From: an uncultured Gammaproteobacteria bacterium
GTDB taxonomy: Bacteria; Pseudomonadota; Gammaproteobacteria; JAAEPA01
Assembly: GCA_963731655.1 (NCBI GenBank)
Contig: CAVSWL010000003.1
Coordinates: forward strand, 24,443 to 88,442
DNA: 64,000 nucleotides
Direction: 5' to 3'
Shown here: one piece after another, positions 34,806 through 54,349 of the stretch
How the letters are laid out: each line of letters starts with the position of its first letter
Numbering within the stretch: the first letter of the stretch is position 1
Notes under the pieces: generated by a model
Told to the model about the DNA's origin: nothing
What the model saw: the letters and a program-made list of their open reading frames with translations, nothing else
Database searches by the model: none
Program-made: the position numbers and the translations under genes

Positions 34806-36083
34806 TTACCCATTAGGTATTACGTCCCCATTATTCAGAAATCCTTGCAATGCTACCGAATCTTCCCTCGCCATCACGTCCAGTGAAACTATCGTAATCC
34901 AACAATTACGCATCCCTTTGAATTGCAGCGGATAAGATCCGGCCAACCCTCGCTCCGCTGGATAGATCAACGCCAAGTGATCGACGCCGTAGCGGTTGGC
35001 ATAGGCTTGCATTTGGTACATATCGCCCTGCGAAACGCCGAGCTTGTGGTCAGTTGCGTCCAACAATTTCCATTTCGCATCCGCGAGCAGGGTTACCTGA
35101 TTATCCTGATCGAGTAAAGCGATATCAGGCTTCATTTGGAAAACGGACTTATCTATGTCCAGACGGTGGGCAAGATATTTTCGTGGCCCTTGCTCGCGCA
35201 AGCGTAGACCTTGCCGTCTCGCATAGCCCCGCATGATAGCGGCCACCCAGGTTTCGAACAAACGGTTCATGTCGAATAGCAGCGAGAAAGCCTTGCCGGA
35301 ACCGGCTAAAACATCGGGGTTAAGACCGCGGACGAATATCTTGCATTGATCGATTACCGCCTGGTATCGTGCATTGACACGATCGATAACCAAGCGATCA
35401 AAACTTTCACCAGTGATTGACACATCACGGACACTGTCAAAACTCATCAATAATTCGGTCACACGCTTTCTCGCCAATGGCGAGCGGGTTTTTGGCAGCA
35501 ACAAACGCAAAGTAAATTTGATGATACGATTTAGCGGGATATCTTCGCCGAGTTCGTCGTAGCGGCAATACAAACGTTCCCGGTGAAACAGGTTATGCTT
35601 CAACTGCTGAGCGGTGAGCAGCCGGCCCCGGAGCACCGGCAAGTTCTCTTCTCTGTTAGTGTACCGCTTGATTTTACCCTGGACGATCTGAGCTTGAAGT
35701 TCTTCGCAAAAGTGCAGTATAAAAACATCCAGTAGGGTATGTTTCTGAATATTGACCGATGCTTGTCCTCCACGATGGCTGCGTAATTGCTTGGCTTTCT
35801 TTAACATCCGCACCAGCGCATCTCGGCAGGAGCCGGGATCATCTTCTTTGCCGTGGATTTTCGGTAGAATCTCCAGGGTGAGATCACCCAATTGAATAAC
35901 CCCGCAATACTGCGTCCATTTGATGCGGTTGTGCCCCCAGCGGAACGTGTTGCACGGCAGACTGCTTTCAATTTTAGACAACAACCGGGCGTGTTTCCGT
36001 CCCAGTGCCCTTTGGCCAGCGTGCCGGTTATCGACGATGGGTAGCGACTCGTGTTCGATACAGCTGATGATATCGGCAGCCAT
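34806..36083 (-). CDS. mcrC: McrC endonuclease subunit
   Basis: 425 aa with a C-terminal PD-(D/E)xK motif (PDIALLD..LLADAKWK). It lies 2 nt downstream of mcrB. Confidence 0.85.
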   Translation of the reverse strand: MAADIISCIEHESLPIVDNRHAGQRALGRKHARLLSKIESSLPCNTFRWGHNRIKWTQYCGVIQLGDLTLEILPKIHGKEDDPGSCRDALVRMLKKAKQLRSHRGGQASVNIQKHTLLDVFILHFCEELQAQIVQGKIKRYTNREENLPVLRGRLLTAQQLKHNLFHRERLYCRYDELGEDIPLNRIIKFTLRLLLPKTRSPLARKRVTELLMSFDSVRDVSITGESFDRLVIDRVNARYQAVIDQCKIFVRGLNPDVLAGSGKAFSLLFDMNRLFETWVAAIMRGYARRQGLRLREQGPRKYLAHRLDIDKSVFQMKPDIALLDQDNQVTLLADAKWKLLDATDHKLGVSQGDMYQMQAYANRYGVDHLALIYPAERGLAGSYPLQFKGMRNCWITIVSLDVMAREDSVALQGFLNNGDVIPNG

Positions 36084-36085
36084 AT

Positions 36086-38334: not shown

Positions 38335-40422
38335 TTAAATCCCGACAACAACCCGCTGCTCGCTGCGCTCAATCTCGCTAAGCGCATCAAACGCTTCCAA
38401 CACCAACCGTCTTGTTCGATATTCGCCGAATTCTTTGATCTCCTTGTTCTTTAGGACACGAAAGGTTTCTGAAGGGTAGTCCTCGCCCATCACGTCCGCG
38501 GGATCGAGGATGTAGCGCAGCTCGTCGCGGGTCAGACCGTAAAGTTTTGCATAGTAGGCGTCCAGTTCGGATTTGAGTTGGTGGCGACGTTCGGGGTCGA
38601 AGGGGAACGGTTCGCCGAAGTAGCCTAAGTCTTCGGCGAAGGGTTTTAGGTCGTGGGTGGTGTAGGCGAGTTCTAGGACGCGGGGGAGGATGAATTTTTG
38701 GTCAGTCCGGGCGTATTGATCGGGAGAAAGAAATGGCAATTGTTTTGGAATGTAGAAATTGAAATTTGCTCCACCTATCTTCTGCCGTGCAATAAAATCA
38801 AATATTAAGCTGATGCAATTTGCGTAAAATGCGGCTATTTGAGGAGTGTGGATATCCTGAGAGGGTATTAGCAGGTGAAAACTATTTCCGACAGGTGATA
38901 TAGGAATAATGCATGGAATTACGCTTCTTTCATCTGTTGTTCTGGCAATTCCTCGCCACCCCAATAAATACTTGGGCCGCCGCGATTCCAGCAGCGGCCA
39001 AACCAGCATCCAAGGATCGGCATTTGCTTTCAGCGACTTTGCCAGTTGCGTAGTTTCCTCGTAGCTCAGTGGATAGTCGTGTTGCATTTGCCGCGCGGCT
39101 TCGGTCTGCGGCGACGGGGTGGTGGCGAATAAATCACCGTTGGTCCCCTGCGTCGGAGAAGCTAACAAACTATCGAATAGTGACCTGTATTTCTTTCCCG
39201 GATGCAGCGCCAGATGCGCGCCGGCGGTCCAGAGTTTCAAAGCGGTGGTGAGCGCTTCAGCATCTTGCTTTTTAGCGGCATCCAGCACCGCTTTAGGCGC
39301 GCGGGCGGTGCGCAGGGTGACTTCGTTTTTTGCCACCCAATAGCGGGGCCGGTTGACGTAGTTGGGGGCTTGCTTCTCCGCCAGCGTGCAATCCCGGCTG
39401 GTTTCGCCGTCGGTTTCGTAGGTCGCCCAACGGTGGTCGTAGTGGTGGATCATTTTTGCTTCATATAATCGTAAATGGTTGTCAGTTATCAGTTGTCGGT
39501 TAACGGTTTTTGCTTTGCTGTTAACCGGTAACTGATAACCGGTAACCGATAACTCCTCGAGTTGGTTATGAGTCGTAAACAAGCCGCTGTCGTTGGACAT
39601 ATCAAATAACCGAGCGAACTTGATGCCCCAAGAATTTTGCTCCGGCTTTTTGCCACTTGCCTCGCGGATCAATACCGGTGCAGAGCGGTAGAGTTTTTTG
39701 GTCAACTCGGCGTCCATCTGGGAGCGAAATACCGGGCAGGTTTTGGTGTTGGGGTTGATGAGCTCGAATTCTTCTCTGCTCAAACTGAAGCGCCGTCGAT
39801 CATCTTTAAGTTGCGTGGGCTGGGTGGCGAAAAACGCCAACTCTGCCTTCGGCACGTTATAGCCCATAGTCAGCAGACAAAATTTGTAACTGCGATGTAC
39901 GCCGGGAAACAATGCATCACGATTCTCGAAATCATACAAGTTGGCCAAACGATTCCCTGCCGCCAACCAACCGAAGAACAACTTGGTCGAGTCGTCGGTG
40001 GCGATGCCGGTAGGTACAATCGTACCCGCTCGACCGTCCGGGTTGATCGCTTTGGCGAAGTGCTCGGCAAAAATTGCATAGAGATTGACGTCGCCGCGTC
40101 CCGTCAGCGGATAGCGCCCCGATAGACGCGCAAAGGCGCTGCCGCCTTCTGCGCTTTGTTTGGCCCGCATAAAATCATCGTATAAGGTTCGTTCGGCCGG
40201 AGTATCGCTATTAGTCAGGGCGTTGATCAGACGGTTGCGTGCGGCGGCATTGGCGGCTCCCGCAATTCCGGTGCTGCGCGACGCGAAAAATTCCTTTTCC
40301 TGTAATTTGATGCGCTCCCAAGGCGGATTCCCCAGCATCACGTCAAATCCACCGTTCCCTTCTTCATCAAACACGCTCGGAAACGCCAGTGGCCAGTGAA
40401 AGAACTGGTGGGTTTCGGCCAA
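38335..40422 (-). CDS. N6-adenine DNA methyltransferase, 3' fragment (catalytic NPPW motif plus C-terminal domains)
   Basis: 695 aa with FDVMLGNPPWERI (motif IV) and LYEAKMIHHYDHRW. It joins the upstream fragment through a 1-nt frameshift near 40424. Confidence 0.85.
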   Translation of the reverse strand: MAETHQFFHWPLAFPSVFDEEGNGGFDVMLGNPPWERIKLQEKEFFASRSTGIAGAANAAARNRLINALTNSDTPAERTLYDDFMRAKQSAEGGSAFARLSGRYPLTGRGDVNLYAIFAEHFAKAINPDGRAGTIVPTGIATDDSTKLFFGWLAAGNRLANLYDFENRDALFPGVHRSYKFCLLTMGYNVPKAELAFFATQPTQLKDDRRRFSLSREEFELINPNTKTCPVFRSQMDAELTKKLYRSAPVLIREASGKKPEQNSWGIKFARLFDMSNDSGLFTTHNQLEELSVTGYQLPVNSKAKTVNRQLITDNHLRLYEAKMIHHYDHRWATYETDGETSRDCTLAEKQAPNYVNRPRYWVAKNEVTLRTARAPKAVLDAAKKQDAEALTTALKLWTAGAHLALHPGKKYRSLFDSLLASPTQGTNGDLFATTPSPQTEAARQMQHDYPLSYEETTQLAKSLKANADPWMLVWPLLESRRPKYLLGWRGIARTTDERSVIPCIIPISPVGNSFHLLIPSQDIHTPQIAAFYANCISLIFDFIARQKIGGANFNFYIPKQLPFLSPDQYARTDQKFILPRVLELAYTTHDLKPFAEDLGYFGEPFPFDPERRHQLKSELDAYYAKLYGLTRDELRYILDPADVMGEDYPSETFRVLKNKEIKEFGEYRTRRLVLEAFDALSEIERSEQRVVVGI
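39477..39553 (+). repeat. heptamer palindrome C, in-frame inside the methyltransferase gene
   Basis: Arms at 39477-39506 and 39520-39553 with a 13-nt loop. It is translated on the minus strand as ..ELSVTGYQLPVNSKAKTVNRQLITDN.. without a stop. Confidence 0.9.
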
Positions 40423-41230
40423 GTGCGGTGACCATTTGATAGACGCCTACCGGTAACATGCCGCCGTCGGCGAGCAGCTTCAGGTGGGCATTGGTGGGAA
40501 CGCTGTCCCGGGTTTCTGCGGTTTTGGGCGCAAAGAAAGCCGCGGTAAAGAGGTCCTCCAGTAGCCGTTCGTCTTTGGACTGCTGATCTTGCCGGGCTTG
40601 CTCGAAGGCGCGGCGCTTGGCTTCGACCTGTTCCACGCTGTCTTCCGGCATGGTTTCAAAATCGTTAAACGGAAGCGAAGCCATGTTCAACGACACGGCG
40701 ATATCCTCGCCGGCTATTTTGTTGATTTTTCTCAGTTCGGTGCAGATTTTTTTATCGTCCCCCGACAATGCCTTGTAAGCATCGTCCGGGATGCCGTTCT
40801 CCAACAGCGCTGGATCCAGCACGCCCACCAAAGCATTACCGCATCGAACATGGGCGTCCAGAAAACTTAGAGGTTTCCCCGGCTCGATGGACTCCAGCCA
40901 CAGGCCGGTCTTACACAGTTCGATGGCCAAGGGATTGATATCCACCCCATAAATACTGTGCCGTACAACTTCGCGCAGGGCATGGCGATAGTGTTGCTCT
41001 GTGGATTGATCGAGCCCCGCGTCGATACGCGCCAACTCCATCGCCAGGCGACGCGCCGCCGCCAGCAGGAAATGGCCCGAGCCGCAGGCTGGGTCGCATA
41101 CGGTAATTGAAAGAATTGACTCGCGGGGATTTTTGGGATTCCGTTGCAGGCGGTCCTCGATCACCGGCACCAGCGCCGATTGAATCAGCTCCTGCACCAG
41201 GGAATCGGGAGTGTAATAGGAACCGGACAA
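40367..41230 (-). CDS. N6-adenine DNA methyltransferase, middle fragment (SAM-binding motif I)
   Basis: 287 aa with SGSYYTPDSLV and VCDPACGSGHFLL. The frame is open upstream to the MITE border (..FLGDDEDEQATNGHARKL). Confidence 0.85.
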   Translation of the reverse strand: MSGSYYTPDSLVQELIQSALVPVIEDRLQRNPKNPRESILSITVCDPACGSGHFLLAAARRLAMELARIDAGLDQSTEQHYRHALREVVRHSIYGVDINPLAIELCKTGLWLESIEPGKPLSFLDAHVRCGNALVGVLDPALLENGIPDDAYKALSGDDKKICTELRKINKIAGEDIAVSLNMASLPFNDFETMPEDSVEQVEAKRRAFEQARQDQQSKDERLLEDLFTAAFFAPKTAETRDSVPTNAHLKLLADGGMLPVGVYQMVTALGRNPPVLSLATGVSERV

Positions 41231-41282
41231 TTTACGTGCGTGACCGTTGGTTGCTTGCTCGTCCTCGTCATCACCTAGAAAG

Positions 41283-41490
41283 CATACGTCACAAGTTAAC
41301 CAAATTAGGAAAATGTCAAGTTCTCTGGTAAAGAAAATTTTACTTTAATAATCATTAGATTACATGTCTGCCCGATGTGTTGTGGTCAGAATGGCAAAAG
41401 CGATTCACTTTTTAGGTTTTTTTAACATATTGTTTTAATTTAGATTTTATTTCTTGACAAATCCACTTTTTTCCTAACTTGTGGCGAATG
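41283..41490. mobile_element. 208-bp MITE-like insertion with a 9-bp target-site duplication
   Basis: TSD CCTAGAAAG at 41274-41282 and 41491-41499. Terminal inverted repeats are CATACGTCACAAGTTA and CATTCGCCACAAGTTA (14 of 16 match). AT-rich with no ORF. Removing the element plus one TSD rejoins ..WRLSFLG|DDEDEQ.. in frame. Confidence 0.8.
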
Positions 41491-42851
41491 CCTAGAAAGC
41501 TTAAACGCCATTGACCTTGGGTGCGCAATTGCGGAATCAGCTCCAGCAGGGATTCGTATACCGAACCGAATTCTTCGGTGTCCATATCCCGGTAATTAAC
41601 CAGGGACAGTACGCCCTCATATTGGAAGTAACCAAGCTTAAACAGCGCCTCATACAAAAAGCGGTTTTCCAGTTCACAGAATTCCAACGCCGCGCATTGC
41701 TCGACGCTAAATATGCCGCCCAGTGCGGGTTGGGCTAGTAAGGACTGGCCGTTTGCAAAACCGGCAAAGATGATCAACAGTTGCTGCCAGGCGTCGCCAT
41801 AGTGGTCATGGTGGGCGCGCAGCCGCGAGCGCTTGCGCAATTGGGCGACGCTGTAGCTTTGTTGGTACAAGCTCCTGGCAGCGGTGTAATCTTGCCCATC
41901 ATGGTCTACGGGTAAAAGGGCCAGATCGCGGTCTTCCGCAGTCAGCAAGAACAGCAGGCGGTACACCAGGCGCAATACCTGTTGGTAATACTGCTCGGTG
42001 GACAGCTCGCCGCTGCTGAGCTGGTCGCGCAGCGCTAGGTTTTGCGGGTGCGCCACAAATCCCGTGCCCAACGCGCGCAAGGCGTCTGCCACGCCGTAGC
42101 GCAACTCGCCCAATACGCGTTCGCCTTCGGCCGCGCCTTTCTGCCGCCATTGTTCCAGCCAACAGTTCTCTAATATGCCATTCTGAGGCTCTGTGCGGCT
42201 GTGATGCAGTAACAACCAAAGGGTTGCGAAGTCGGGATAGTTCTCTTCGTCAAATAAGCTGTCGAGATCCACCTCGATATAGGCCGGGCGGGTCATGGCG
42301 GGATTGTTGCGCAACACGCACAACTGAACACCGTTGGAAACCAGCGCCCACAGGCAGGCGTTTTCCGCGTTCAGGTATTCCTGGGCGAGACCCACGGGGG
42401 AGCGTTTATTGCCATCCTGACCGAAGGCGACATCGCCCTTATCCAATTCTTTGCCGGCGTCGCATAACACCAAGGGCACGCTGCCGTCGTTGGCGAAATG
42501 AGTGATGGGAAATTCGCGCTCACCGATGCGCCGCGGCTGAGCGGATTCAACGCGGAAACCCAAAACATCGTTTAACAGGGGCAAGAGCCAGAGTTTTACC
42601 GCCAGTCGTTCCGGATGAATATCGGTGCGCTGACGATGTTCGTTGTAAGCTTGCCAATGACTTTGCGCAATACGCCAATAACGGCCTAGCTCGTCCGCCA
42701 GCTTCAAGCATTTCGGAATTCCGTAGTCGGCCGGAGTTTGGCCAGGCAAGGCGTACTTGCGCGCCTTCCGCAACACCTGGCTGGTCAGCAGTCCACCGAC
42801 GACGCGGATGGATTCGAACAGTTGGTCGTTCGGATTAGTTTCCTTACTCAT
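41412..42851 (-). CDS. N6-adenine DNA methyltransferase, 5' fragment (N-terminal domain)
   Basis: 479-aa ORF. Residues after ..QGQWRLSFLG are read-through into the MITE, so genuine coding ends at about 41491. Confidence 0.75.
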   Translation of the reverse strand: MSKETNPNDQLFESIRVVGGLLTSQVLRKARKYALPGQTPADYGIPKCLKLADELGRYWRIAQSHWQAYNEHRQRTDIHPERLAVKLWLLPLLNDVLGFRVESAQPRRIGEREFPITHFANDGSVPLVLCDAGKELDKGDVAFGQDGNKRSPVGLAQEYLNAENACLWALVSNGVQLCVLRNNPAMTRPAYIEVDLDSLFDEENYPDFATLWLLLHHSRTEPQNGILENCWLEQWRQKGAAEGERVLGELRYGVADALRALGTGFVAHPQNLALRDQLSSGELSTEQYYQQVLRLVYRLLFLLTAEDRDLALLPVDHDGQDYTAARSLYQQSYSVAQLRKRSRLRAHHDHYGDAWQQLLIIFAGFANGQSLLAQPALGGIFSVEQCAALEFCELENRFLYEALFKLGYFQYEGVLSLVNYRDMDTEEFGSVYESLLELIPQLRTQGQWRLSFLGIRHKLGKKWICQEIKSKLKQYVKKT

Positions 42852-42925: not shown

Positions 42926-43276
42926 TCAACGATTATTCAAAGAATCATGTAACGCCTGAAGCATTCTTGAAATTGATTTCAATTCCTTAATCAGTGCTTT
43001 CGCTTCCACGTCTGGAAGCAGCTTGACGGCTTGCGCGATAAACACCTGAGTTCTCAGTTCCGCGGCCGACCCCTTTGATATGTTTGTAAATCGCTTAAAT
43101 TCAGCAACACTGTTTCTCTCACTTCCTTCCGCAACATTAGAAGGAATGGATACCGCCGCGCGCAGCATTTGATCCTTCATTGCGTAATCGCGACAATCTC
43201 TCAGTAATTCATACAGACGTACCGTCAACCGACACGACTTCTTCCAAACCTCCAACTCTTCAAACCCAACACTCAT
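42926..43276 (-). CDS. four-helix-bundle protein (23S rRNA intervening-sequence / S23p family)
   Basis: 116 aa. FEELEVWKKS, LRAAVSIPSNVAEGSER and SKGSAAELRTQ are the hallmark of the TIGR02436-type family. Confidence 0.85.
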   Translation of the reverse strand: MSVGFEELEVWKKSCRLTVRLYELLRDCRDYAMKDQMLRAAVSIPSNVAEGSERNSVAEFKRFTNISKGSAAELRTQVFIAQAVKLLPDVEAKALIKELKSISRMLQALHDSLNNR

Positions 43277-43288
43277 CCCTTATCCCCA

Positions 43289-43349
43289 CCGACAACCGAC
43301 AACCACGACAACCGACAACCGATAACCGATAACCGATAACCGATAACCC
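43289..43349 (+). repeat. heptamer array E: ~8.5 tandem units (CCGACAA x4 with one 9-mer, then CCGATAA x4)
   Basis: Read directly. It fills the gap between the four-helix-bundle start (43276) and the SNF2 stop (43352). Its orientation is complementary to arrays A and F. Confidence 0.9.
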
Positions 43350-43351
43350 CT

Positions 43352-44581
43352 TCATAACAAACCTATATCCGGCACCAAGACATAAACGCCAACCACATCC
43401 ACCGGCAATTGCGGGTGAACCTGGTATTTGCCGCGGGCCTCGGCGGCTTCGCGGGTTCGGCGGTGGTCGGCCAGCAGGGTTTCGGCTCGTTCGCGGGCGA
43501 GTTGTTCAAACAAAGCCTGCCGCGCCGGCAGTTCGTCGATGGCTCGGGATAACTCACGGTTTTTTCTTTCCAAGGGCATGTTTTTACTGACTTTCGCCTG
43601 CATCAATTGCAGGGCCTGCTGCTTTGGCAATACCTTGGTTTTGCCAGCGCCGGTTACGGCCACGGCCAGCGCTTCTTCTCCTAATAAATCCCGGGCGGCG
43701 TCGCCGCGCTTGAGCGTGAGGCGCGACCGCAGCCGCAGTAGATAAACGATGGTTTTGGACTCGACGTCCGCGGTGTATATCGCACTGGCGCGGGCGACCA
43801 GTTGGGTGTTGGCGCCGCGCATGGCCATTTCCGCCAGGTAGTCCGCGAGCTGGCTTACCAGCGGATGGGTGCGGTGGATAAACTCGGCGTGAGCCGCGCT
43901 CGGATATTGGAAGTCGATTTTCTTGAGTTGCAGCAAGCCGGCAGCTTCCAGGCGGTCTTTGAGTTGTGGATGCTTGTCACCCACGTGTTGCAGTGGCGCA
44001 CCGAAACCTCCGATTGAGATGGGCTGCAGCGGCGCGCCCAGCCGGTCCAAGGCGTTGACGACAAAACGTTGTACGTCCTGCTCGGTACCCAACACGGCGA
44101 AGGCCTTTTCCCACTCTGGCAACACATCATCCGGCTTGAGTCGATTCTGTGCGAAGACGGTGCGGTTCTGCCTGGCCTTGTCACGGGCGGATGCCCACTT
44201 GGCATCCAGAGCCTGCACCTCTTCATCGTCGACAAAGAGATCGAACTGTTTGCTTGCTCGCCGCTCCTTGCGAAGCAAAACGGTATTGAGGATTGCCTGA
44301 GTCACCCGGTTGTCGTCTTCCGGCATAGGCACCGACACGCCCAAGGCCTTACGAATATTGTCGGCTTTGCGCAAAATGACTTGCAGTACGGCGCCGTCGA
44401 TCGGATTGTCATCGCCGTATAACATGAGCGCCTTGACCGTCCGCGCGCGCTGGCCGAAGCGGTCGACCCGGCCTTCGCGTTGTTCGTGCCGGGTGGGGTT
44501 CCAGCTCAGGTCGTAATGCACGACCGCGGTGAATTGATCCTGCAGGTTAATCCCTTCCGATAAACAGTCGGTGGCGACCAA
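43352..44581 (-). CDS. SNF2-family helicase, 3' fragment (helicase C domain plus C-terminal region)
   Basis: 409 aa with VATDCLSEGINLQ and WNPTRHEQREGRVDRFGQ. Confidence 0.85.
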   Translation of the reverse strand: MVATDCLSEGINLQDQFTAVVHYDLSWNPTRHEQREGRVDRFGQRARTVKALMLYGDDNPIDGAVLQVILRKADNIRKALGVSVPMPEDDNRVTQAILNTVLLRKERRASKQFDLFVDDEEVQALDAKWASARDKARQNRTVFAQNRLKPDDVLPEWEKAFAVLGTEQDVQRFVVNALDRLGAPLQPISIGGFGAPLQHVGDKHPQLKDRLEAAGLLQLKKIDFQYPSAAHAEFIHRTHPLVSQLADYLAEMAMRGANTQLVARASAIYTADVESKTIVYLLRLRSRLTLKRGDAARDLLGEEALAVAVTGAGKTKVLPKQQALQLMQAKVSKNMPLERKNRELSRAIDELPARQALFEQLARERAETLLADHRRTREAAEARGKYQVHPQLPVDVVGVYVLVPDIGLL

Positions 44582-46257
44582 AATCGGATCTTTATCGCTG
44601 ATTTTAGCTGTTCGATTTTTTCCTGTCGCTCGACCGGTGTCAGATCACCGGTTACGAAAATCACTTCACGGTGCTTGAATCGTTCGGCGAGTTGTTCCGC
44701 CAGGTATTCCGCGGTGGCGATATATCGGCAAAAGATGACCGGGTGATAACCCTCGTCCAACATGGGTTTGAGCATTTTCAGCAATGTTTTGAGTTTGGGA
44801 TCACCGCTGCTTTTGAGCCGTTGCGCGCGCCCGATCAATTGATTCAGGCGATCGATATCTTCAGGCAAGGCCGCCCCAGGTTCGGCGTCGTCAAAGCTGA
44901 GGCCATCGTCCGCGCCATCGAGCACACTGGCGGCCCCCTGGGTCTCCAGCGCCGCCTGCAATTGGTGTTCGTTTTCAGGGTCGGCATCAAGAGTGGTGGT
45001 TAAACGGGTGTTCAGCGCGCGAATCGCCGCCTGGGGAGAGGATGAAATACAACGCAACAAGGCCAGCGCCGCCCACCAGTTCATGCGCGCTTTAAGCGTG
45101 CCTTGATGTTCACGTTCGACCAGTTCGCGCGCATAGGCCAAGACGTCTTGGAAAATGGCCTCCCATTCATCGCTGAGCTGGTAAGTTGCCTCGGTGGTTA
45201 AGCGCTCCGGAAACAGGGTCATATCCTGCCATTCTCTGATATCTTGGCGGCGCCGCTGAATAAAATGTTCAGCCAATGCCAGCCGCAAAGGATGGTTCGC
45301 GCTTTCAATCTGTATGAGTTCTGCGAATTCGGGTTTGAGTAAGGACAACAAGTTGTAAAAGGCTTCTTCGTCGCCGCTGTGCGGCGTGGCGGTTAACATC
45401 AGTAAATGACGCGAACTCTTGTTGGCCAAATCTTTGAGCAGCTCGTAACGCTGTTGCCGTCCCTGGCCCCTGTGGGAGCAGGTATGCGCCTCGTCGACGA
45501 TGATAAAATCGGGGCATTGCTCGGCGAAGGCGTCCCGGCGGTTTTTATTCTTGACATAATCCAGCGAGACGATAGTAAACGGGTATTCGGTAAATATTGA
45601 GCTGCCGGCCGGTAAGCTGCGCTCCAGGCGGCCCGCGGTCGTCGAGCGCACCACGGCGGTCTCGATATGAAAACGGTTCTTGAGCTCTTCGTGCCATTGA
45701 TCGCAGAGGTGCGGTGGGCACAAAACGCTCAGCCCATCGATTTCACCGCGATCCAGCATCTCCCGAGCAATGAGCCCCGCCTCGATCGTTTTGCCGATGC
45801 CGACATCATCTGCGATGAGCAAGCGAATCACGTCGAGTTTCAGGGCCATCATCAGTGGCACGAGCTGGTAGGCGCGAGGTTCGAGGGCAATGTTGCCGAA
45901 ACTGCGAAACGGCCCGGCGCCGGCGCGCAGTTTCAGCATCAGCGCATCACGCAGCAACAAGCCGGCGGATTGCGTACCGGCTTGATTCAATTCCGGATAA
46001 GGAAAGCGGGCTGGGACGATCGCTTCGCGTTCCAGCACGGGTTCAATCACGGTTTCCGCATCGTCACCCCCGCCCAGGGGACGAAGATGGAGTCTGTCGG
46101 CTTCGCTCTGCGGCAGCACTACCCATTCACGCCCGCGCGCACGCACGATGCCTCCGGGTGTAAACGTTATTCGGTTATCGGTTCTCGGTTGCCGGTTATC
46201 AGTGGGCATTAGGTGGCTCCGAAGATGTCGGGGTAGCGGGCGATGATCGCGGGCCAC
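44506..46257 (-). CDS. SNF2-family helicase, 5' fragment (probable start at ATG 46209)
   Basis: ADDVGIGKTIEAG, IIVDEAHTCS and LMLTATPHSG. The frame is lost near 44597, where ..EQLKSA should continue DKDPILVATD. The start at 46209 gives a TAATG overlap with the upstream stop. Confidence 0.85.
   Translation of the reverse strand: MARDHRPLPRHLRSHLMPTDNRQPRTDNRITFTPGGIVRARGREWVVLPQSEADRLHLRPLGGGDDAETVIEPVLEREAIVPARFPYPELNQAGTQSAGLLLRDALMLKLRAGAGPFRSFGNIALEPRAYQLVPLMMALKLDVIRLLIADDVGIGKTIEAGLIAREMLDRGEIDGLSVLCPPHLCDQWHEELKNRFHIETAVVRSTTAGRLERSLPAGSSIFTEYPFTIVSLDYVKNKNRRDAFAEQCPDFIIVDEAHTCSHRGQGRQQRYELLKDLANKSSRHLLMLTATPHSGDEEAFYNLLSLLKPEFAELIQIESANHPLRLALAEHFIQRRRQDIREWQDMTLFPERLTTEATYQLSDEWEAIFQDVLAYARELVEREHQGTLKARMNWWAALALLRCISSSPQAAIRALNTRLTTTLDADPENEHQLQAALETQGAASVLDGADDGLSFDDAEPGAALPEDIDRLNQLIGRAQRLKSSGDPKLKTLLKMLKPMLDEGYHPVIFCRYIATAEYLAEQLAERFKHREVIFVTGDLTPVERQEKIEQLKSAIKIRFWSPPTVYRKGLTCRINSPRSCITT
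46165..46199 (+). repeat. heptamer array F: 5 units (CGTTATT CGGTTAT CGGTTCT CGGTTGC CGGTTAT)
   Basis: Read directly. It lies in the first ~14 codons of the SNF2 ORF, encoding TDNRQPRTDNRI on the minus strand. Confidence 0.9.
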
Positions 46258-47516
46258 TGGTTTTGTTCTTCCGGGAAGCGGATCACCGTCAGACCCGCCG
46301 CTTCCAGTTGCGCGGCCAACTCGTCGTCCAGATTCTTTTGATTAGGGTGCTCGTGATGCGGACCATCGATGTAGATGGTTGCTTGGTGTACCTGGTAGAT
46401 AAAATCCGGCCGGGTATTGAACCTCTCGATGACCACCTGCGCATCGTCGGGCAGCTGATAGCCGTTTTGTTTTAAATACACGACAAAGGCTTGTTCCGGC
46501 GAGTTGTCGGAGCTATTGCTGAGGGGATTATCGACTTGCTTATCATGGCCGCGTCCGCCGTTGGGGGTTTTAAGCGTCGCGTTTGCTAATTGCTTGAGCA
46601 GTTCCAGGACATCGGGATGTTGCCGGTCGATCAACTTGTGATCCATTTGGTTGTAGTAGCTAAGTAAACAGCGATAACAACCGGCTTCACAATCGGGATT
46701 GTTGTTGTGATGCGTTCGCCAATCGTCGTTGGTTTCGAAGTGGCAGAGCTGCAATGCACGAGTGGCGATCCTGCCCAGAGCGTCTTTATCGGTGGTCAAT
46801 CGGGTTAATACTCCGGCGCCGCCTTCGGCCGCCTCGTAGAATAAAATCGCATAGCGCTCATCGCGATTCGGCAGAGGTTCGCAGATCAATTCCGATTCTT
46901 CGATCTGATATTCTTCTTCGATGCCGCGTTTCAAGGCATATTGCAATGTCGTGAGCACTTCCTCATCGAGCCGATTTTTGGGTCTGAGGATCAGCACGTT
47001 GCGCCGATCCTCGACATAGGGTGTAATGCGATCGATCGTGCGCTCTGGTTTGGCGAAATCCTTTTCGTGTTCAGCCGGCGCCTGTTCGTCCTTAGCCCAT
47101 TCGCCGGTTACGGTATCGATATTGAATCCAAAGATTGACGCTTCTCTGCGGCGCCGCCAGCCGAGGTTCATGCGCCAAACCGTCGCGGCCGGGGCATACT
47201 GCATGCTAAGCAAGGGTTCATCATCGTGGCCAATTTCGCGCTGGACCACATTGAGCCCATTGCCATTTTTGGCGAACTGCACCGTGGTCTGCATGTCGTA
47301 GCCTTGGCGTTGGCGTTCTTCTTCGTCACAGGTGATACGCAATACGCGCCGAGTACTGACATTTTCGACTCGATAAAGATTGTCGATGCGTTTGCCACCC
47401 TCGATGGGCTCACCGCAGGCATTGCACAGCTCATCCTCAAGCTGTTGCAGGAAATGCCCATATCCGCAAGAGGGGCATAAACGAGCTTCTTTTTTGGCCA
47501 GCACGAACGATTCCAC
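46209..47516 (-). CDS. DUF1998 (DrmB-like) zinc-ribbon protein with a C-terminal DUF559/Vsr-like endonuclease domain
   Basis: 435 aa with CPSCG..CNACG, ITCDEEERQRQGY and CEAGCYRCLLSYYNQ (DUF1998 signature). The C-terminus RPDFIY..TIYIDGPHHEH..DDELAAQLEAAGLTVIRF is a DUF559-type PD-(D/E)xK pattern. Confidence 0.75.
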   Translation of the reverse strand: MESFVLAKKEARLCPSCGYGHFLQQLEDELCNACGEPIEGGKRIDNLYRVENVSTRRVLRITCDEEERQRQGYDMQTTVQFAKNGNGLNVVQREIGHDDEPLLSMQYAPAATVWRMNLGWRRRREASIFGFNIDTVTGEWAKDEQAPAEHEKDFAKPERTIDRITPYVEDRRNVLILRPKNRLDEEVLTTLQYALKRGIEEEYQIEESELICEPLPNRDERYAILFYEAAEGGAGVLTRLTTDKDALGRIATRALQLCHFETNDDWRTHHNNNPDCEAGCYRCLLSYYNQMDHKLIDRQHPDVLELLKQLANATLKTPNGGRGHDKQVDNPLSNSSDNSPEQAFVVYLKQNGYQLPDDAQVVIERFNTRPDFIYQVHQATIYIDGPHHEHPNQKNLDDELAAQLEAAGLTVIRFPEEQNQWPAIIARYPDIFGAT

Positions 47517-47522
47517 GTCTTG

Positions 47523-50255
47523 TCAATCGTTAATACCGAGCATGACCTTTTTTACGCGGTACTGACTGCCCTCGTGATAAATCAGGCTAAGCGGGCCGAA
47601 TTCGGAAATCGCCAGGAAACGCGGCCGGGCCAGAAAGCTGTCGCGGCCCACATTGCCTCGGCGGCCCTGGATATACGCTAACAGCGGCAAACGCGGGAAG
47701 TTATAGCCCGGTAAAAAGCCTTGGCTGGCGAGATAACGGTACGTTGAGAAATCTGAACTCATTTCACTGTGGGCGTTGAGCAACAAATTGATCTGCGTTT
47801 TTGCTTCGCTATAGCGGCGATCCGCCGCCTTTCGATCCCGCTCAACTGAGGCTGGATTGGCGATGATTCGATGGGCTTTTTGTAGCTGCTCTTCGGTTGA
47901 GGCATAGAGATCGCGCCAACGCCTGAGTGATTGGTCGAAACTGGCGAAGGCATTGTTAACTTTTGCGTTCAGCCAGTCTGCGTAAGCCTGTTCCAGGCTC
48001 ACATCTGACTCCAGCCAGACGCCTTGCGCCTGGATTAATCCGTCGCCTAACATCTTGAGTAAATTTAAACCGCGGCTAGCGGTCCTTTGGCGCACCTCGT
48101 CCGAGTCCATTTGTCGGGTAAACTCTTGCAGCAGCGGCATAGCATCGGGCTGATTCATATCGAGCATACCGTTTACCGTTTTTGGTAAGGCTTTGCCGGT
48201 TTCATTTAGCCACACTGCGTGCAGATGACTCGCGACCAGATCCTGATTTGCGAGATCCAATGTCGGTGGACTCACGTGGCCGTGCACCATCCGCGCCGGA
48301 TCGCTGAAGAAATATTGGTCATGCGGACTGAGCGCCGCGCAATAGGTGATGACCAATGCGGGTTGCCCGGAGCGTCCGGCCCGTCCGGAACGCTGCGCAT
48401 AGTTCGCTGGTGTCGGCGGAACGTTGCGCATATAAACGGTATTCAACGAGGCGATATCGACGCCTAATTCCATCGTGGGCGAACAGAACAGCGTTTTGAG
48501 CTCGGCGCTGCGGAATAGTTTTTCACGTTCTTCGCGGTCTTTTATCTCCACCTGGGCGGTGTGCTCCCTAGCCTGCAGATCAAACAGCGTGCGACCGCCT
48601 TGTCGGAGTATTTCCTTAATCGTGGTGTATAACGTGCGGAAGTATTTGTTATCGGAATGGTAAGGGTTGGTCGGATCGGGTTCAGGTCTCTCCTCAACCG
48701 CTTTCCATTGCAAAAACTCACCCAACAGCTGATAGCCTTGGACGCCGCCGCCCCCTTCTACTGGTTCTACCAAACCATAGGCCTGCAATGCTTGCATGAG
48801 GCTAAGAATTAGATCCGGGTAATTTTCATCGTTGAATTTGGGTAAGAAATGAAAATCTTCGCGCCAGATCTCCCTGCGTTTGAGAGCAAGCCCCAGCGTT
48901 GAGCGGCTGGATGCGGTGACGAGATTAAAATCATTGTTATGCCGCCGGGGTTTACTATCCAGCAGCAAAATACAAGCCGATTGCAAATATTCCTCTTCAG
49001 TGAAAGCCCAGGGTTCTTTTAAATACTGATAGCTTTGGCTCTTAAATCGCTCCTGTTGGATGGGGTCGAGGTAGCGGCTTTTTATACAGAGGCCTCGGCG
49101 CATGGTATCCAGCACTGCTTTAAGCGCGCGATAGCGGTTTTCAGGCGAAGCGTTTTTTAATTCTGGACAGGGTAGGTTTTCCCACTCGGCTTGGTCGCGG
49201 CACAGCTCTTCCAGGCCCACATAATCGATGCGCAACAATCCGAGTTGTTCAAGATTCGGATTATTAAAACGCCAGCCGCGGCGCAGATCGAAGTAAAGGC
49301 GGTAAGCCAACACGTTTCTGACGGCTTCTTCCGCCTTTCTCCGCCCAGGCCCTTTGGCAGCTGGATTTTCAAGATAATCGGCGCCGTCTTTATCAAAGCC
49401 CAAACTTTGAAATACCGCTTGCGATAGGTCGCTATCGGTCAAATACTCCTGGTCCGCACCTTCGACTGCGGCTAATAAGCCGGTCCGTAGCAAGAGAATT
49501 TGCACAAAATCGTTGTAATGGCCCGCTTGCAACGATGCATCCTGACGATTATCGGTAAAACCCAGCAGCTTTTTCGCGTCGCTGGTTAATTCGGTGTCGC
49601 GCTCCAACATGTAACGCAGAGCGGAAATAGTGAGTACAGTGGTCGCCGAAGAGCGCCCTTCACCACTGAGTGAAGTCAATCGCGTTTCGTCCCGCCCACG
49701 AGCCGCATGCGACATTCCACAACTCAAACAGAAACGGAAGCTTCCCGGTACGAACCAACCAGGGGCTCCTTTGTGACTAATTTCACCCCAAGGCGTAACG
49801 ACAATCTGTTGCGGTTTAAATTTTTTGTAACTGCTTTTAAGTTTGTAATCACCGTTCTTTGATTCGAGCCAATGCTCCGGATAATTATTCGAATCGCTTG
49901 CGTCCCACTGGCTAAGCGGATCGAACATGAAAAAGCCCCAATGGTCGTCTTCTTCTGCGCTGTCGCGTTCGTCGATCGGGCGCGGATTTAAAACACGTTT
50001 GTCGTCTTCCATTTCAAGCCATACCGTGTGGTACTCCTGACCGCATTGCCGGCAGAAATGCAGACTGAAAAATTTTTTACTGCGATCGCCCGGTAGGAAT
50101 TGTTGGCCGGTCAAATCGAATTCACGTTTTTCTGCAGGCTCAAGCGTGGAGAAGACATTGTTAGCCCCCGAAATAAACTGGTGCAAACGGAAAGCAAACA
50201 AAGGCTTGCCTTTGTTATCCCGGCAGTGATAGGCGGACAACAGGAACTGGCGCAA
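47523..50255 (-). CDS. DExH helicase (DrmA/COG1205-like), 3' part, downstream of an in-frame TAG
   Basis: 910 aa in the track, with the frame open up to 50423. Helicase C motifs are ELGVDIASL and YAQRSGRAGRSGQ. The C-terminal GFLPGYNFP..IYHEGSQYRV resembles the beginning of a DUF1998 region. Confidence 0.85.
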   Translation of the reverse strand: MRQFLLSAYHCRDNKGKPLFAFRLHQFISGANNVFSTLEPAEKREFDLTGQQFLPGDRSKKFFSLHFCRQCGQEYHTVWLEMEDDKRVLNPRPIDERDSAEEDDHWGFFMFDPLSQWDASDSNNYPEHWLESKNGDYKLKSSYKKFKPQQIVVTPWGEISHKGAPGWFVPGSFRFCLSCGMSHAARGRDETRLTSLSGEGRSSATTVLTISALRYMLERDTELTSDAKKLLGFTDNRQDASLQAGHYNDFVQILLLRTGLLAAVEGADQEYLTDSDLSQAVFQSLGFDKDGADYLENPAAKGPGRRKAEEAVRNVLAYRLYFDLRRGWRFNNPNLEQLGLLRIDYVGLEELCRDQAEWENLPCPELKNASPENRYRALKAVLDTMRRGLCIKSRYLDPIQQERFKSQSYQYLKEPWAFTEEEYLQSACILLLDSKPRRHNNDFNLVTASSRSTLGLALKRREIWREDFHFLPKFNDENYPDLILSLMQALQAYGLVEPVEGGGGVQGYQLLGEFLQWKAVEERPEPDPTNPYHSDNKYFRTLYTTIKEILRQGGRTLFDLQAREHTAQVEIKDREEREKLFRSAELKTLFCSPTMELGVDIASLNTVYMRNVPPTPANYAQRSGRAGRSGQPALVITYCAALSPHDQYFFSDPARMVHGHVSPPTLDLANQDLVASHLHAVWLNETGKALPKTVNGMLDMNQPDAMPLLQEFTRQMDSDEVRQRTASRGLNLLKMLGDGLIQAQGVWLESDVSLEQAYADWLNAKVNNAFASFDQSLRRWRDLYASTEEQLQKAHRIIANPASVERDRKAADRRYSEAKTQINLLLNAHSEMSSDFSTYRYLASQGFLPGYNFPRLPLLAYIQGRRGNVGRDSFLARPRFLAISEFGPLSLIYHEGSQYRVKKVMLGIND

Positions 50256-50423
50256 GTAACGTTCACAATGCTGTTTATTTAAGCCAGAATCGCTAGATAA
50301 TTGTTCGGCGGCCCATTGCAGGCTCCTCGGTTTTGCCCGGACCCAACGGCCTTCTTCTTTGTTGATTCCCAGCGTGAGTTCGATCCATGCCGATACAGGG
50401 TGCTCGCGAACCGCCTTGAATTT

Positions 50424-51425
50424 CTAGACGGCGGGCAAGGGTTTTTCCAGCGCAGCAGCCAACTTTGCCCCCGTCGGTTTTTCAATCATCGGGGTTTGGC
50501 GTTGGAGCGTTTCGGTGATGATGTGTTCCGGCTTGACTTTACCGCCGAAAAGTTTAGTGGCTACGTCGGCTACGGCGCCATTGCGTGCGGCAAGACTCCC
50601 CTCGCTGGCCATGGTCGCCGATGTGCCTATGCACTGCACCTGCGAATTTAGCGCTTCACGCACCCGTCGCACTAACATGGCGACATCGGCGCCTTGGCGG
50701 CCGCGGTAGGTATGGAGCTCATCGAGAATCAGGAAATTCAGTCCCTCGGCAGCCCGGATCACCTTGCGATCCAGATCGTCCTGCCGCGTCATGAGCAGTT
50801 CCAGCATCATGAAGTTAGTCAGGATAATGTCCGGCGGACAGGCAGCTATCGCCTGGCGTTCTTCCTGAGATTCTTGTCCAGTATAGCGGCCGTAGGTGAC
50901 TGGCTTGTTGCCCCCATAGTGACCCAGGAATTTATCCAATTCTTCCTTTTGAGAATTCACCAAAGCATTCATCGGATAAATAATGATGGCCTTGATCGAA
51001 GGTTTCAGATCAATCGCCTTGGCTTTTAACACGGCATCAACGATAGGAATGATATAGCTAAGCGATTTACCCGACCCGGTGCCCGTGGTAAGTACATAGC
51101 TTTCTTTGCGGTGCGCGATTTCGATGGCGTCTTGTTGATGTTTGTGAAGCTGGGCCGATATCCCTGGACTGCCCTTGCCGTCTCGACCAAATCGAAAAAT
51201 ATTAGCGCATTCGGCATGCAACACCCCCTTGGCAACCAACTGTTCGACATTGTCCCCGGCGACAAAGGCGGGATTGAGCTGGATGAGAGGCGCAGGCCAG
51301 TAATTGCCTGCCTCATAGCGTGCGGAGACGAATTGCTGGATATCCGGTGCTTTTATTGTCGTGAAGCTGGTCGTGAATGCCTTGTAATCGGCAATCACCG
51401 CATCGCGGTATTCGAAAACGTCCAT
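50424..51425 (-). CDS. DExH helicase (DrmA/COG1205-like), 5' part ending at an in-frame TAG
   Basis: 333 aa with TTGTGSGKSL (motif I), LILDELHTYRG (DExH) and GTSAT (motif III). It is in the same frame as the 47523..50423 ORF. Confidence 0.85.
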   Translation of the reverse strand: MDVFEYRDAVIADYKAFTTSFTTIKAPDIQQFVSARYEAGNYWPAPLIQLNPAFVAGDNVEQLVAKGVLHAECANIFRFGRDGKGSPGISAQLHKHQQDAIEIAHRKESYVLTTGTGSGKSLSYIIPIVDAVLKAKAIDLKPSIKAIIIYPMNALVNSQKEELDKFLGHYGGNKPVTYGRYTGQESQEERQAIAACPPDIILTNFMMLELLMTRQDDLDRKVIRAAEGLNFLILDELHTYRGRQGADVAMLVRRVREALNSQVQCIGTSATMASEGSLAARNGAVADVATKLFGGKVKPEHIITETLQRQTPMIEKPTGAKLAAALEKPLPAV

Positions 51426-53332: not shown

Positions 53333-54349
53333 GTGAACTTTTGTGCCTTTTTTAAGGTTCAGGGGTTACAGAGGATGATTACAATGGATTCCAGAGCACA
53401 GCTCACTGTCGACATTGTTGCCAAGGTTGCTGAAGGTAGAATTGATATCGTCAATGCATCGAAGCTGCTGAATCGATCACGTAGAACGATTGAACGCTAT
53501 CTCTGCAAATATCGAAAGGTTGGTATTCAATTCGTTGTTCACCAGAATACCGGGAAATCGCCTTCTAATAAATCCTGTGATGAAATTAAACGTACTGTTC
53601 AGAGCTTGATCAAGGATAAATACTTTGATGTGAATCTCACTCACCTTGCGGAGTTGTTGGAGAAAAACGAGTGTATTCGGGTAAAACGTGAAACCTTGAG
53701 ATCATGGGCTCACGAGATACACCATGTTAAGCGTGCCAAGCGCAGACGGTCTCAGGTGAGAAAACGACGAGAACGCATGGAGTCTCCCGGATTATTGCTT
53801 CAGATGGACGGCAGTACGCATCGTTGGTTTGGGAACCAGAAATCTTGCTTGATAGCGATTATTGATGACGCGACCAGTGAGGTACATGCAGAGTTCTTCG
53901 AATCTGAGACCACCTTGGGCTGCCTGAAGGTGTTGCGCGACACCATCGCAGAAAAAGGTCTGTTCAAAGCACTCTACGTTGATAAGGCTGGAATCTTTGG
54001 TGGACCGAAGCGTTGTAACTTCTCACAAGTAAGGCGAGCCTGTGAGGAGTTAGGTGTAGAGATTATATTTGCCAATTCTCCACAGGGAAAGGGTCGGATT
54101 GAACGCTCGTTTGACACTTTCCAGGACAGGCTCGTTCCTGAACTTAGACTCAATAACATGCAGGATATGGACAGCGCCAATCGATACCTGAAGGAAGAGT
54201 TTATCCCATCATTCTGGAGCGACCACATCGAAGTCGTTCCTCACAACGGAGAAACGGAATTTACTCCTGTTCCTGAACACATCGATCATCGATCGGGTGC
54301 ATTCCCATATTCCCGGTCAAGCTGTGAAAGTAGAAGGCAGCAGAGTTGA
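53333..54349 (+). pseudogene. ISNCY-family DDE transposase, N-terminal ~320 codons (interrupted by the nested IS)
   Basis: An HTH region, then LLLQMDGSTHRWFG..LIAIIDDATSEV..FANSPQGKGRIER, typical of an rve-type DDE. Residues after ..PVPEHID run into the inserted element. Confidence 0.7.

What the first reader, a model, noticed from the sequence alone, without database searches (positions are those of the whole stretch)
46209..47516. DUF1998 protein carries a C-terminal DUF559/Vsr-like endonuclease domain, a candidate replacement effector for PLD DrmC
The last ~95 residues (RPDFIY..TIYIDGPHHEH..DDELAAQLEAAGLTVIRF) follow the DUF559 pattern: a strand, then (I/V)xxDG, then an acidic residue, then G..V.RF. 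This is a PD-(D/E)xK-type fold. It comes directly after the DUF1998 Cys4 signature (CEAGCYRCLLSYYNQ). A nuclease fused to the DUF1998 module, in a locus that lacks the PLD nuclease, would be a functional substitution.
Basis: inference. Interest (0 to 1): 0.65.

Follow-up and report, generated by a model that had tools for sequence, protein, structure and literature searches.

The report
Broken ARMADA Type I helicase-nuclease gene
The "DUF1998 protein with a nuclease tail" is the last third of a large anti-phage helicase-nuclease gene of the already described ARMADA Type I defence system, and in this genome all three genes of that system are broken.

Summary
The last ~95 residues of the minus-strand ORF 46209-47516 are a DUF559/Vsr-like PD-(D/E)xK domain, supported by a Pfam score above threshold for the isolated tail, a match in 70 of 74 homologous tails, a 3HRL profile hit, and an AlphaFold model whose best Foldseek match is a Vsr-like homing endonuclease.

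The gene model is wrong. The ORF is not a stand-alone DrmB. It is the C-terminal third of one 1738-codon reading frame (51425 to 46209) cut by two in-frame stops, TAG at codon 334 and TGA at codon 1301. In 75 of 80 related genomes this frame is a single ~1720-1850 aa protein, followed by one SNF2 gene and one methyltransferase gene. A PLD gene is almost never nearby.

This three-gene cassette is ARMADA Type I (Bell et al. 2025 preprint), which already describes the C-terminal Vsr-type nuclease on the YprA-family helicase. One of my homologous loci lies on a contig those authors list as carrying an ARMADA Type I helicase.

The copy here is decayed. The SNF2 gene is frameshifted. The methyltransferase carries a 208-bp MITE-like insertion and a frameshift. 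The TGA is polymorphic, reading GGA in another metagenome.

The finding is already known and of low interest.

The parts
46209..51425 (-). armC-like YprA-family helicase-nuclease pseudogene: one 1738-codon frame carrying DEAD/RecA1, Helicase_C/RecA2, a Zn ribbon, MZB/DUF1998 and a Vsr/DUF559 domain, cut into three ORFs
   Evidence: One search shows a continuous frame with two internal stops. Searches give the domains and the best PADLOC match, DruE. Searches show a single ORF of ~1720-1850 aa in 75 of 80 homologous loci. One search gives 51.5% identity over residues 1-1736 to the Pandoraea anapnoica locus L031.
50424..50426 (-). In-frame TAG at codon 334, in an unconserved linker after the RecA1 domain
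   Evidence: A contig from run X1 reproduces it with 0 differences.
47523..47525 (-). In-frame TGA at codon 1301; this creates the apparent start of the 'DUF1998 protein'. It is polymorphic.
   Evidence: A contig from run X2 has C instead of A at plus-strand position 47525, which gives GGA (Gly), with no other difference in 143 bases.
46209..47516 (-). The ORF of the finding: the C-terminal 435 codons of the helicase frame (GTG at 47516, stop at 46209-46211)
47415..47477 (-). N-terminal CxxC...CxxC zinc ribbon (C14, C17, C31, C34 of the ORF)
   Evidence: The four Cys are invariant in 53 homologues. It corresponds to the 'zinc-binding module' in Bell et al. Table S2; that correspondence is inferred.
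46665..46946 (-). MZB/DUF1998 zinc-binding domain (ORF aa 191-284, includes CEAGCYRC)
   Evidence: Pfam PF09369, E 4.7e-12. H259, C276, C280 and C283 in ORF numbering are invariant (P0001 numbering plus 4).
46212..46499 (-). Vsr/DUF559-like PD-(D/E)xK nuclease domain (ORF aa ~340-435); conserved residues D371, D384, H388, D397, R413
43352..46257 (-). armA-like SNF2 (BrxHII/RapA/DrmD-like) helicase pseudogene, with a frameshift near 44605-44638
   Evidence: tblastn with intact homologues switches from frame -2 to -1 there. Homologues are single ORFs of ~940-980 aa.
38335..42851 (-). armB-like PglX/DrmMI-like N6-adenine methyltransferase pseudogene, in three frames
   Evidence: tblastn frames run -3, -1, -2. 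Homologues are single ORFs of ~1300-1700 aa.
41283..41490 (.). 208-bp AT-rich MITE-like insertion inside the methyltransferase gene, flanked by the direct repeat CCTAGAAAGC
   Evidence: Depth is 25-45x against 2-4x in the flanks, and other contigs continue into unrelated sequence at both ends.

Best explanation
ORF 46209-47516 is the C-terminal third of an ArmC-like helicase-nuclease gene of an ARMADA Type I anti-phage system. The intact system has three genes in this order: a ~1740-aa YprA-family DExH helicase, a BrxHII/RapA-like SNF2 helicase, and a PglX-like N6-adenine methyltransferase. The helicase carries a fused zinc ribbon, the OB-CON-DUF1998 region as described for the family, and a C-terminal Vsr-type PD-(D/E)xK nuclease.

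The likely mechanism is inferred from published work on DISARM and ARMADA Type II. The methyltransferase marks host DNA. The helicase loads on unmodified invading DNA and translocates. The built-in Vsr-type nuclease cuts it. That nuclease occupies the place that the separate PLD nuclease DrmC has in DISARM, and that fused PLD domains have in Druantia DruE.

In this genome the system is a decaying relic. The helicase has two nonsense codons, the SNF2 gene a frameshift, and the methyltransferase a MITE-like insertion plus a frameshift. The 435-aa 'DUF1998-DUF559 protein' is therefore a product of ORF calling on a pseudogene.
For: - Single frame with two stops; homologues read through both.
- In 80 loci from many phyla the cassette is helicase, SNF2, methyltransferase, each normally one ORF.
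- The tail is DUF559/Vsr-like by Pfam, PDB profile and predicted fold.
- There is no conserved PLD neighbour.
- The published definition of ARMADA Type I matches gene content, order and the Vsr tail. Their Table S2 reports the same 3HRL hit for the Type I ArmC Vsr domain.
- Their Table S1 lists a helicase on Pandoraea anapnoica contig CABPSP010000013.1 as ARMADA Type I. That is the contig of my locus L031, whose helicase is 51.5% identical to the window frame over 1736 residues.
- PADLOC's best match is DruE, as the preprint says of ARMADA helicases.
- The decay is real. The TAG is reproduced in run X1. The methyltransferase frameshift zone is reproduced in runs X1 and X8. The MITE is structural and multi-copy.
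- Ten other window ORFs give ordinary Pfam matches, and the large chromosomal ones look full length.
Against: - The run contigs are short and shallow (2-4x). X1 could be the sample the window was assembled from, so the TAG has no clearly independent confirmation.
- The SNF2 frameshift was not covered by any run.
- The TGA is GGA in run X2, so at least part of the population has that site intact.
- A GTG lies 6 nt after the TGA, and DISARM naturally splits its helicase near this point, so a separately translated C-terminal fragment cannot be strictly excluded.
- Nuclease activity of the Vsr domain has not been shown for any ARMADA protein in the papers read. Bell et al. mark the Type I domain 'active?'.
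- I did not check that locus tag PAN31117_04130 is exactly the L031 helicase ORF; only the contig matches.
Confidence: 0.88

Rival explanations
1. Natural gene fission. The TGA followed by a GTG 6 nt later produces a separately translated DrmB-like subunit (zinc ribbon, DUF1998, Vsr nuclease) that reassembles with the helicase, as DrmA and DrmB do in DISARM.
For: The stop lies in an unconserved linker just before the zinc ribbon. A split at about the same place, helicase residues ~1242 | ~1313, occurs in locus L057, whose methyltransferase is one ORF. In DISARM the OB-CON-DUF1998 part is a separate gene.
Against: The upstream helicase piece is itself cut by a TAG at codon 334, and the next possible start is 56 codons downstream. 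The SNF2 and methyltransferase genes are also broken. A near-identical contig in run X2 has GGA at this codon. 75 of 80 homologues are unsplit. No Shine-Dalgarno-like sequence is visible before the GTG (read directly).
Confidence: 0.05
2. Assembly or sequencing error. The stops and frameshifts are artefacts, and the organism has an intact ARMADA Type I system.
For: The TGA site reads GGA in another run. The two closest database relatives, L001 and L003, come from assemblies in which these genes are also fragmented.
Against: The two helicase breaks are substitutions, not indels. The TAG and the methyltransferase frameshift zone are reproduced in short-read unitigs from runs X1 and X8, which belong to different studies. 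The 208-bp insertion with a target-site-like duplication is a structural change. The other long genes sampled in the window give full-length domain matches.
Confidence: 0.06
3. The Vsr-like tail is catalytically dead and serves only in DNA binding or protein contacts, as proposed for the inactivated Vsr domains of Druantia I/II DruE. The true effector would then lie elsewhere.
For: Bell et al. mark the Type I domain 'active?' and describe inactivated Vsr domains in related helicases. No nuclease mutant is reported among the mutants listed in the preprint.
Against: D371, D384 and D397 are invariant, and H388 and R413 are at least 90% conserved, across homologues down to ~30% identity in the tail. 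They align with the corresponding residues of the DUF559 structure 3HRL. No other nuclease gene is conserved in the cassette.
Confidence: 0.12

Closest known systems
ARMADA Type I (ArmC-like YprA helicase, BrxHII-like SNF2, PglX-like methyltransferase); Bell et al. 2025, bioRxiv 10.1101/2025.09.15.676423
   Same: Gene content, gene order (YprA homologue first), the C-terminal Vsr-type nuclease, and the absence of both a GajB-like fourth gene and a PLD gene. The window frame is 51.5% identical over 1736 residues to the helicase on a contig the authors list as carrying an ARMADA Type I helicase.
   Different: All three genes are disrupted here. A four-helix-bundle gene (42926-43276) sits between the SNF2 and methyltransferase genes, which directly abut in most homologous loci.
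ARMADA Type II of E. coli (armABCD), experimentally shown to defend against phages (Bell et al. 2025; mBio 2026, PMC13463889)
   Same: A YprA-family helicase with DUF1998 and a Vsr-type nuclease, plus SNF2 and methyltransferase partners.
   Different: In Type II the order is SNF2, methyltransferase, helicase, followed by a GajB-like ArmD. ArmC often has additional EEP and second Vsr domains. Neither feature is seen here.
DISARM class 1 (DrmD, DrmMI, DrmA, DrmB, DrmC)
   Same: An SNF2 helicase, an N6-adenine methyltransferase and a DUF1998-bearing helicase module. A defence logic based on methylation and unmodified DNA is inferred.
   Different: The helicase and DUF1998 parts are one polypeptide. 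There is no PLD DrmC, and a Vsr-type nuclease is fused instead. NCBIfam DrmD and DrmA scores are far below the equivalog cut-offs. PADLOC places the helicase nearer DruE than DrmA.
Druantia type III DruE
   Same: The closest helicase relative by PADLOC profiles (E 1e-100 and lower for an intact homologue). It is also a helicase with DUF1998 and a C-terminal nuclease.
   Different: DruE carries PLD-like nuclease domains and works with DruH. Here the nuclease is Vsr-like and the partners are SNF2 and a methyltransferase.
DUF559 / Vsr-like endonuclease fold (PDB 3HRL; I-Bth0305I 3R3P; E. coli Vsr)
   Same: The motif pattern PDF ... IDG..H ... D ... G.tV.RF, and the predicted alpha/beta fold.
   Different: It is a C-terminal domain of a 1738-residue helicase rather than a small stand-alone protein. 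Sequence scores are marginal for this single sequence (19.5-21.8 bits).

Membership tests
ARMADA Type I | YprA-family DExH helicase with the DUF1998 (MZB) module fused in the same polypeptide | tested here: met
   One frame running 51425 to 46209 contains DEAD, Helicase_C and MZB. An intact homologue shows the same architecture in one ORF.
ARMADA Type I | C-terminal Vsr-type PD-(D/E)xK nuclease domain on the helicase | tested here: met
   DUF559 scores 21.8 bits for the isolated tail, and 70 of 74 homologous tails match. 3HRL is the best PDB profile hit. AF2 pLDDT is 86 and the Foldseek top hit is 3R3P.
ARMADA Type I | BrxHII/RapA-like SNF2 helicase and PglX-like methyltransferase follow the helicase; no GajB-like ArmD | tested here: met
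   The order is the same in the 80 homologous loci.
ARMADA Type I | Falls with proteins the authors classified as ARMADA Type I | tested here: met
   Table S1 lists Pandoraea anapnoica CABPSP010000013.1 PAN31117_04130 as an ARMADA Type I helicase. L031 is on that contig, and its helicase is 51.5% identical over residues 1-1736. No tree was built, and the locus tag was not matched to the ORF.
ARMADA Type I | BrxA-like helical insertion after RecA1 (proposed synapomorphy of the ARMADA-Druantia lineage) | not tested
   The full-length protein was not modelled.
ARMADA Type I | Intact, expressible genes that confer phage defence | tested here: not met
   Two nonsense codons, two frameshifts and one insertion. 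Defence activity itself is not testable here, and was shown only for Type II.
DISARM class 1 | Separate DrmA (helicase) and DrmB (DUF1998) genes | tested here: not met
   The separation here comes from a polymorphic nonsense codon. 75 of 80 homologues are a single ORF.
DISARM class 1 | PLD-family nuclease DrmC in the operon | tested here: not met
   No PLD match in the 20 window ORFs scanned around the locus. PLDc_2 occurs in 2 of 137 and at most 1 of 133 flanking ORFs of the homologous loci.
DISARM class 1 | DrmA and DrmD equivalog scores (NCBIfam) | tested here: not met
   DISARM_DrmD scores 317 bits against a 610 cut-off. DISARM_DrmAS scores 18.5 against 950 (intact homologue L005).
DUF559 / Vsr-like PD-(D/E)xK nucleases | Pfam PF04480 gathering score | tested here: inconclusive
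   19.5 bits for the whole ORF, below the 20.6 cut-off. 21.8 bits for the isolated tail, above it. Family-wide support is strong, at 70 of 74 tails.
DUF559 / Vsr-like PD-(D/E)xK nucleases | Conserved catalytic-type Asp/His residues and the restriction-endonuclease-like fold | tested here: met
   D371, D384 and D397 are invariant, and H388 and R413 are at least 90% conserved. They align with 3HRL. The predicted fold matches Vsr-like and other PD-(D/E)xK nucleases.
DUF559 / Vsr-like PD-(D/E)xK nucleases | Demonstrated endonuclease activity | not testable with these tools
   No biochemical data for ARMADA Vsr domains appeared in the papers read.

The most novel reading that the evidence does not exclude
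The TGA/GGA polymorphism at codon 1301, together with the GTG six bases downstream and an independent split at the same linker in a Spirochaetaceae locus (L057), might mark a recurrent and tolerated fission point. At that point ARMADA helicases would break into a DrmA-like motor and a DrmB-like DUF1998-nuclease subunit, retracing how DISARM's two-gene arrangement arose. The window would then capture this step as a population variant rather than as simple decay.
Probability: 0.04. Interest if true: 0.4.

Novelty: already known. Interest (0 to 1): 0.12.

Why it matters
It matters little beyond correct annotation. It is also one of the described features of ARMADA systems, published in a 2025 preprint. 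ARMADA Type II has been shown to defend E. coli against many phages.

There are two practical lessons:
1. ORF-by-ORF reading of this locus gives a misleading 'DrmB-nuclease fusion protein', because the gene is a pseudogene cut by nonsense codons.
2. This copy cannot be used as a functional example.

What remains open for the whole family is whether the Vsr domain is the catalytic effector. That question is better addressed in intact homologues, for example from Halomonas smyrnensis, Pandoraea anapnoica or Aromatoleum, or in E. coli ArmC.

Tried and rejected
- Recoding of the internal stops (TGA as Sec or Gly, TAG as Pyl). Rejected because the two stops are different codons, homologues have ordinary variable residues at both positions, the other two genes have frameshifts, and a near-identical contig has GGA.
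- A genome-wide error-rich assembly. Rejected because the other long genes sampled give full-length domain matches and short-read unitigs reproduce the lesions.
- Looking for the two PLDc_2-positive flanking ORFs by HKD-motif regex and then scanning the candidates with Pfam. None of the candidates was PLD, so the two ORFs remain unidentified. They are not conserved neighbours in any case.
- Two Pfam scans of 150-member sets failed on the residue limit. They were redone with sets restricted to ±2.5 kb.
- Reads over the SNF2 frameshift: no coverage in four runs.
- NCBIfam gave no family above its cut-off for the 435-aa ORF or for the intact helicase.
- The profile search of PDB sequences did not reach E. 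coli Vsr itself at E ≤ 1.
Full report
**What is at the coordinates.**
An ORF of 435 codons with a GTG start occupies 46209-47516, on the minus strand. Pfam finds the MrfA zinc-binding domain (MZB, formerly DUF1998) at residues 191-284 with E 4.7e-12. It also finds a weak DUF559 match at residues 371-418, at 19.5 bits against a gathering score of 20.6.

**Is the tail a DUF559/Vsr-like nuclease domain?**
- A search of the large protein collection returned 1463 relatives. In 113 of the best 120, the last ~135 residues are conserved.
- I aligned 74 tails (A1). Scanned alone, the window's tail scores 21.8 bits on DUF559, above threshold.
- 70 of the 74 tails match DUF559 (best E 4.6e-8). 17 match the restriction-endonuclease-like family MTES_1575, and one matches Vsr itself.
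- A profile of A1 finds PDB 3HRL, a DUF559 'endonuclease-like protein', as its best solved relative at E 0.019. The alignment pairs the motifs PDF, IDG..H, D and G.tV.RF.
- AlphaFold2 on A1 gives a confident model with mean pLDDT 86.4; the core, residues 40-135 of the tail, is mostly above 90.
- Foldseek's best PDB match is 3R3P, the Vsr-like catalytic domain of homing endonuclease I-Bth0305I (E 5.6e-3, probability 1.0, TM 0.61 on the target). Weaker matches to Hjc, VRR_NUC and the PvuRts1I/AbaSI nucleases are all PD-(D/E)xK folds.

The observation about the tail is therefore correct.

**The gene model is not correct.**
Translating the minus strand from 51500 to 46209 gives one uninterrupted frame with only two internal stops. 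These are a TAG at 50424-50426 (codon 334) and a TGA at 47523-47525 (codon 1301). The frame carries these domains:
- DEAD/RecA1 in ORF 50424-51425.
- Helicase_C in ORF 47523-50255.
- A zinc ribbon, MZB and the nuclease tail in ORF 46209-47516.

Database homologues of 690-755 aa read straight through the second stop. I then fetched 80 genomic loci from one-genome-per-species contigs. They span Pseudomonadota, Actinomycetota, Chloroflexota, Planctomycetota, Bacillota, Cyanobacteria and others. In 75 of the 80, the whole frame is a single ORF of about 1720-1850 aa that aligns to residues 1-1736 of the window's read-through. Both stops fall in unconserved linker positions, where homologues have ordinary residues.

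So the 'DUF1998 protein' is the C-terminal third of a large helicase-nuclease.

**The cassette.**
In those loci the helicase is followed on the same strand by one SNF2 helicase ORF of about 940-980 aa. After that comes one N6-adenine methyltransferase ORF of about 1300-1700 aa, matching Eco57I, MmeI and N6_Mtase models. The window has the same two genes, but broken.
- The SNF2 gene switches frame near 44605-44638.
- The methyltransferase is in three frames, with breaks at about 41281-41490 and 40418-40452.
- The first methyltransferase break is a 208-bp AT-rich insertion at 41283-41490. It is flanked by the direct repeat CCTAGAAAGC and has short imperfect inverted repeats near its ends.
- In salt-marsh metagenome contigs this segment has 25-45x depth against 2-4x for its flanks. 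It also continues into unrelated sequence on both sides. This is the behaviour of a multi-copy MITE.

**Are the lesions real?**
- Public runs from salt-marsh, soil and sediment metagenomes hold near-identical sequence.
- A contig of run X1 reproduces the TAG region with no difference.
- Contigs of X1 and X8, from different studies, reproduce the methyltransferase frameshift zone with no difference.
- At the TGA, a contig of run X2 differs by a single base in 143. It has C for A at plus-strand position 47525, which turns TGA into GGA, Gly. The stop that creates the ORF of the finding is therefore a population variant of a sense codon.
- The SNF2 frameshift had no read coverage.
- Other long genes in the window give ordinary, full-length domain matches: a chemoreceptor, a malic enzyme, a Na/H exchanger and a histidine kinase. 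The decay is specific to this locus.
- The closest database relative (L001/L002, about 80% identical) is also broken, but at different places. It has a transposase inside the SNF2 gene and a frameshift inside the nuclease tail.

**PLD test.**
I called ORFs in the 80 loci and clustered the 428 that lie outside the cassette. No conserved extra gene emerged apart from small lineage-specific groups, none of which is PLD. I then scanned 270 ORFs lying inside or within 2.5 kb of the cassettes against Pfam.
- PLDc_2 occurs in 2 of 137 ORFs in the first half of the loci.
- It is not among the families with two or more members in the second half, which had 133 ORFs.

A PLD nuclease is therefore not part of this system, and the Vsr-like tail is the only nuclease domain conserved in the cassette.

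**What it is called.**
A literature search found that this architecture has been described. Bell et al. (bioRxiv 10.1101/2025.09.15.676423, September 2025) analysed the YprA helicase family and defined ARMADA, the 'DISARM-related antiviral defence array'.
[quoted passage not shown] This is the same structure my profile search found.
- Their Table S1 lists Pandoraea anapnoica CABPSP010000013.1 (PAN31117_04130) as an 'ARMADA Type I helicase'. My locus L031 is on that contig. Its helicase is 51.5% identical to the window's read-through over residues 1-1736.
- As the preprint reports for ARMADA helicases, PADLOC's nearest models are DruE rather than DrmA.
- NCBIfam's DISARM DrmD and DrmA models score far below their equivalog cut-offs.
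- ARMADA Type II was shown to defend E. coli against many phages. All four genes and the Walker and methyltransferase motifs were required. No mutant of the Vsr nuclease appears among the mutants the preprint lists.

**How it most likely works.**
This is inferred, not shown. In an intact system the methyltransferase marks host DNA. The YprA-type motor loads on unmodified foreign DNA. The fused Vsr-type nuclease then cuts it, with the SNF2 protein assisting. In this window the mechanism is not operating, because all three genes are disrupted.

**Verdict.**
- The locus is a pseudogenised ARMADA Type I cassette next to an apparently intact McrBC-like system.
- Interest is low.

Noticed in passing
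window 41283-41490: A 208-bp AT-rich MITE-like element is inserted in the methyltransferase gene, flanked by the direct repeat CCTAGAAAGC. In salt-marsh metagenome contigs it has roughly 10-fold higher depth than its flanks and is joined to many other flanks, so it is a multi-copy mobile element in this community.
   Followed up: partly
window 42926-43276 (minus strand): A 116-aa four-helix-bundle protein (Pfam 23S_rRNA_IVP, TIGR02436) sits between the SNF2 and methyltransferase genes. In most homologous loci those two genes directly abut. The close relative L001 has an RHH/ParE toxin-antitoxin pair at that position instead.
   Followed up: partly
window 34806-37570 (minus strand): An apparently intact McrBC-like pair lies directly downstream of the broken cassette: an McrB-like GTPase with an N-terminal EVE domain (36086-37570) and McrC (34806-36083). 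An AAA_5 gene also follows the cassette in Halomonas smyrnensis (L027:18440-21088).
   Followed up: partly
window 53333-54349 (plus strand): A transposase-like ORF (HTH_29 plus a weak rve integrase core match) lies about 2 kb upstream of the helicase gene. A 478-aa ORF with no Pfam match follows it (54389-55825).
   Followed up: no
L040:19100-21184 and 11 other loci (e.g. L031, L034, L035, L039, L043): In 12 loci, the checked examples from Betaproteobacteria, a co-directional ~650-690 aa protein follows the methyltransferase. It has no Pfam or NCBIfam match, only a weak PADLOC LmuB hit at E 1.5e-7. It may be a fourth component of an ARMADA Type I subclade.
   Followed up: partly
L076:11332-13674, L077:11617-13686 and related: A UvrD-like helicase gene is inserted between the YprA helicase and the SNF2 gene in a few loci (three 'inside', two upstream). 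This is reminiscent of the GajB-like ArmD of ARMADA Type II.
   Followed up: no
L001 (ENA contig, 286,955 bp) and L002: The closest relative of the window's locus (~80% protein identity) is also degraded, but at different sites. The helicase is in three pieces, a frameshift lies inside the Vsr domain (P0002 ends in unrelated residues), and a DDE transposase sits inside the SNF2 gene. Either decay is independent in this lineage or the assembly is of low coverage.
   Followed up: partly
window 43288-43322: A short segment just downstream of the SNF2 gene end has much higher depth in four metagenome runs (up to 26x against ~3x). It also shows a 2-bp length polymorphism at 43303/43304. It may be another small repeat.
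   Followed up: no
L057:944-6122: In a Spirochaetaceae genome the helicase is split into 1259 aa and 431 aa pieces at about the same linker as the window's TGA, while its methyltransferase is a single ORF. This may be a tolerated fission point.
   Followed up: no
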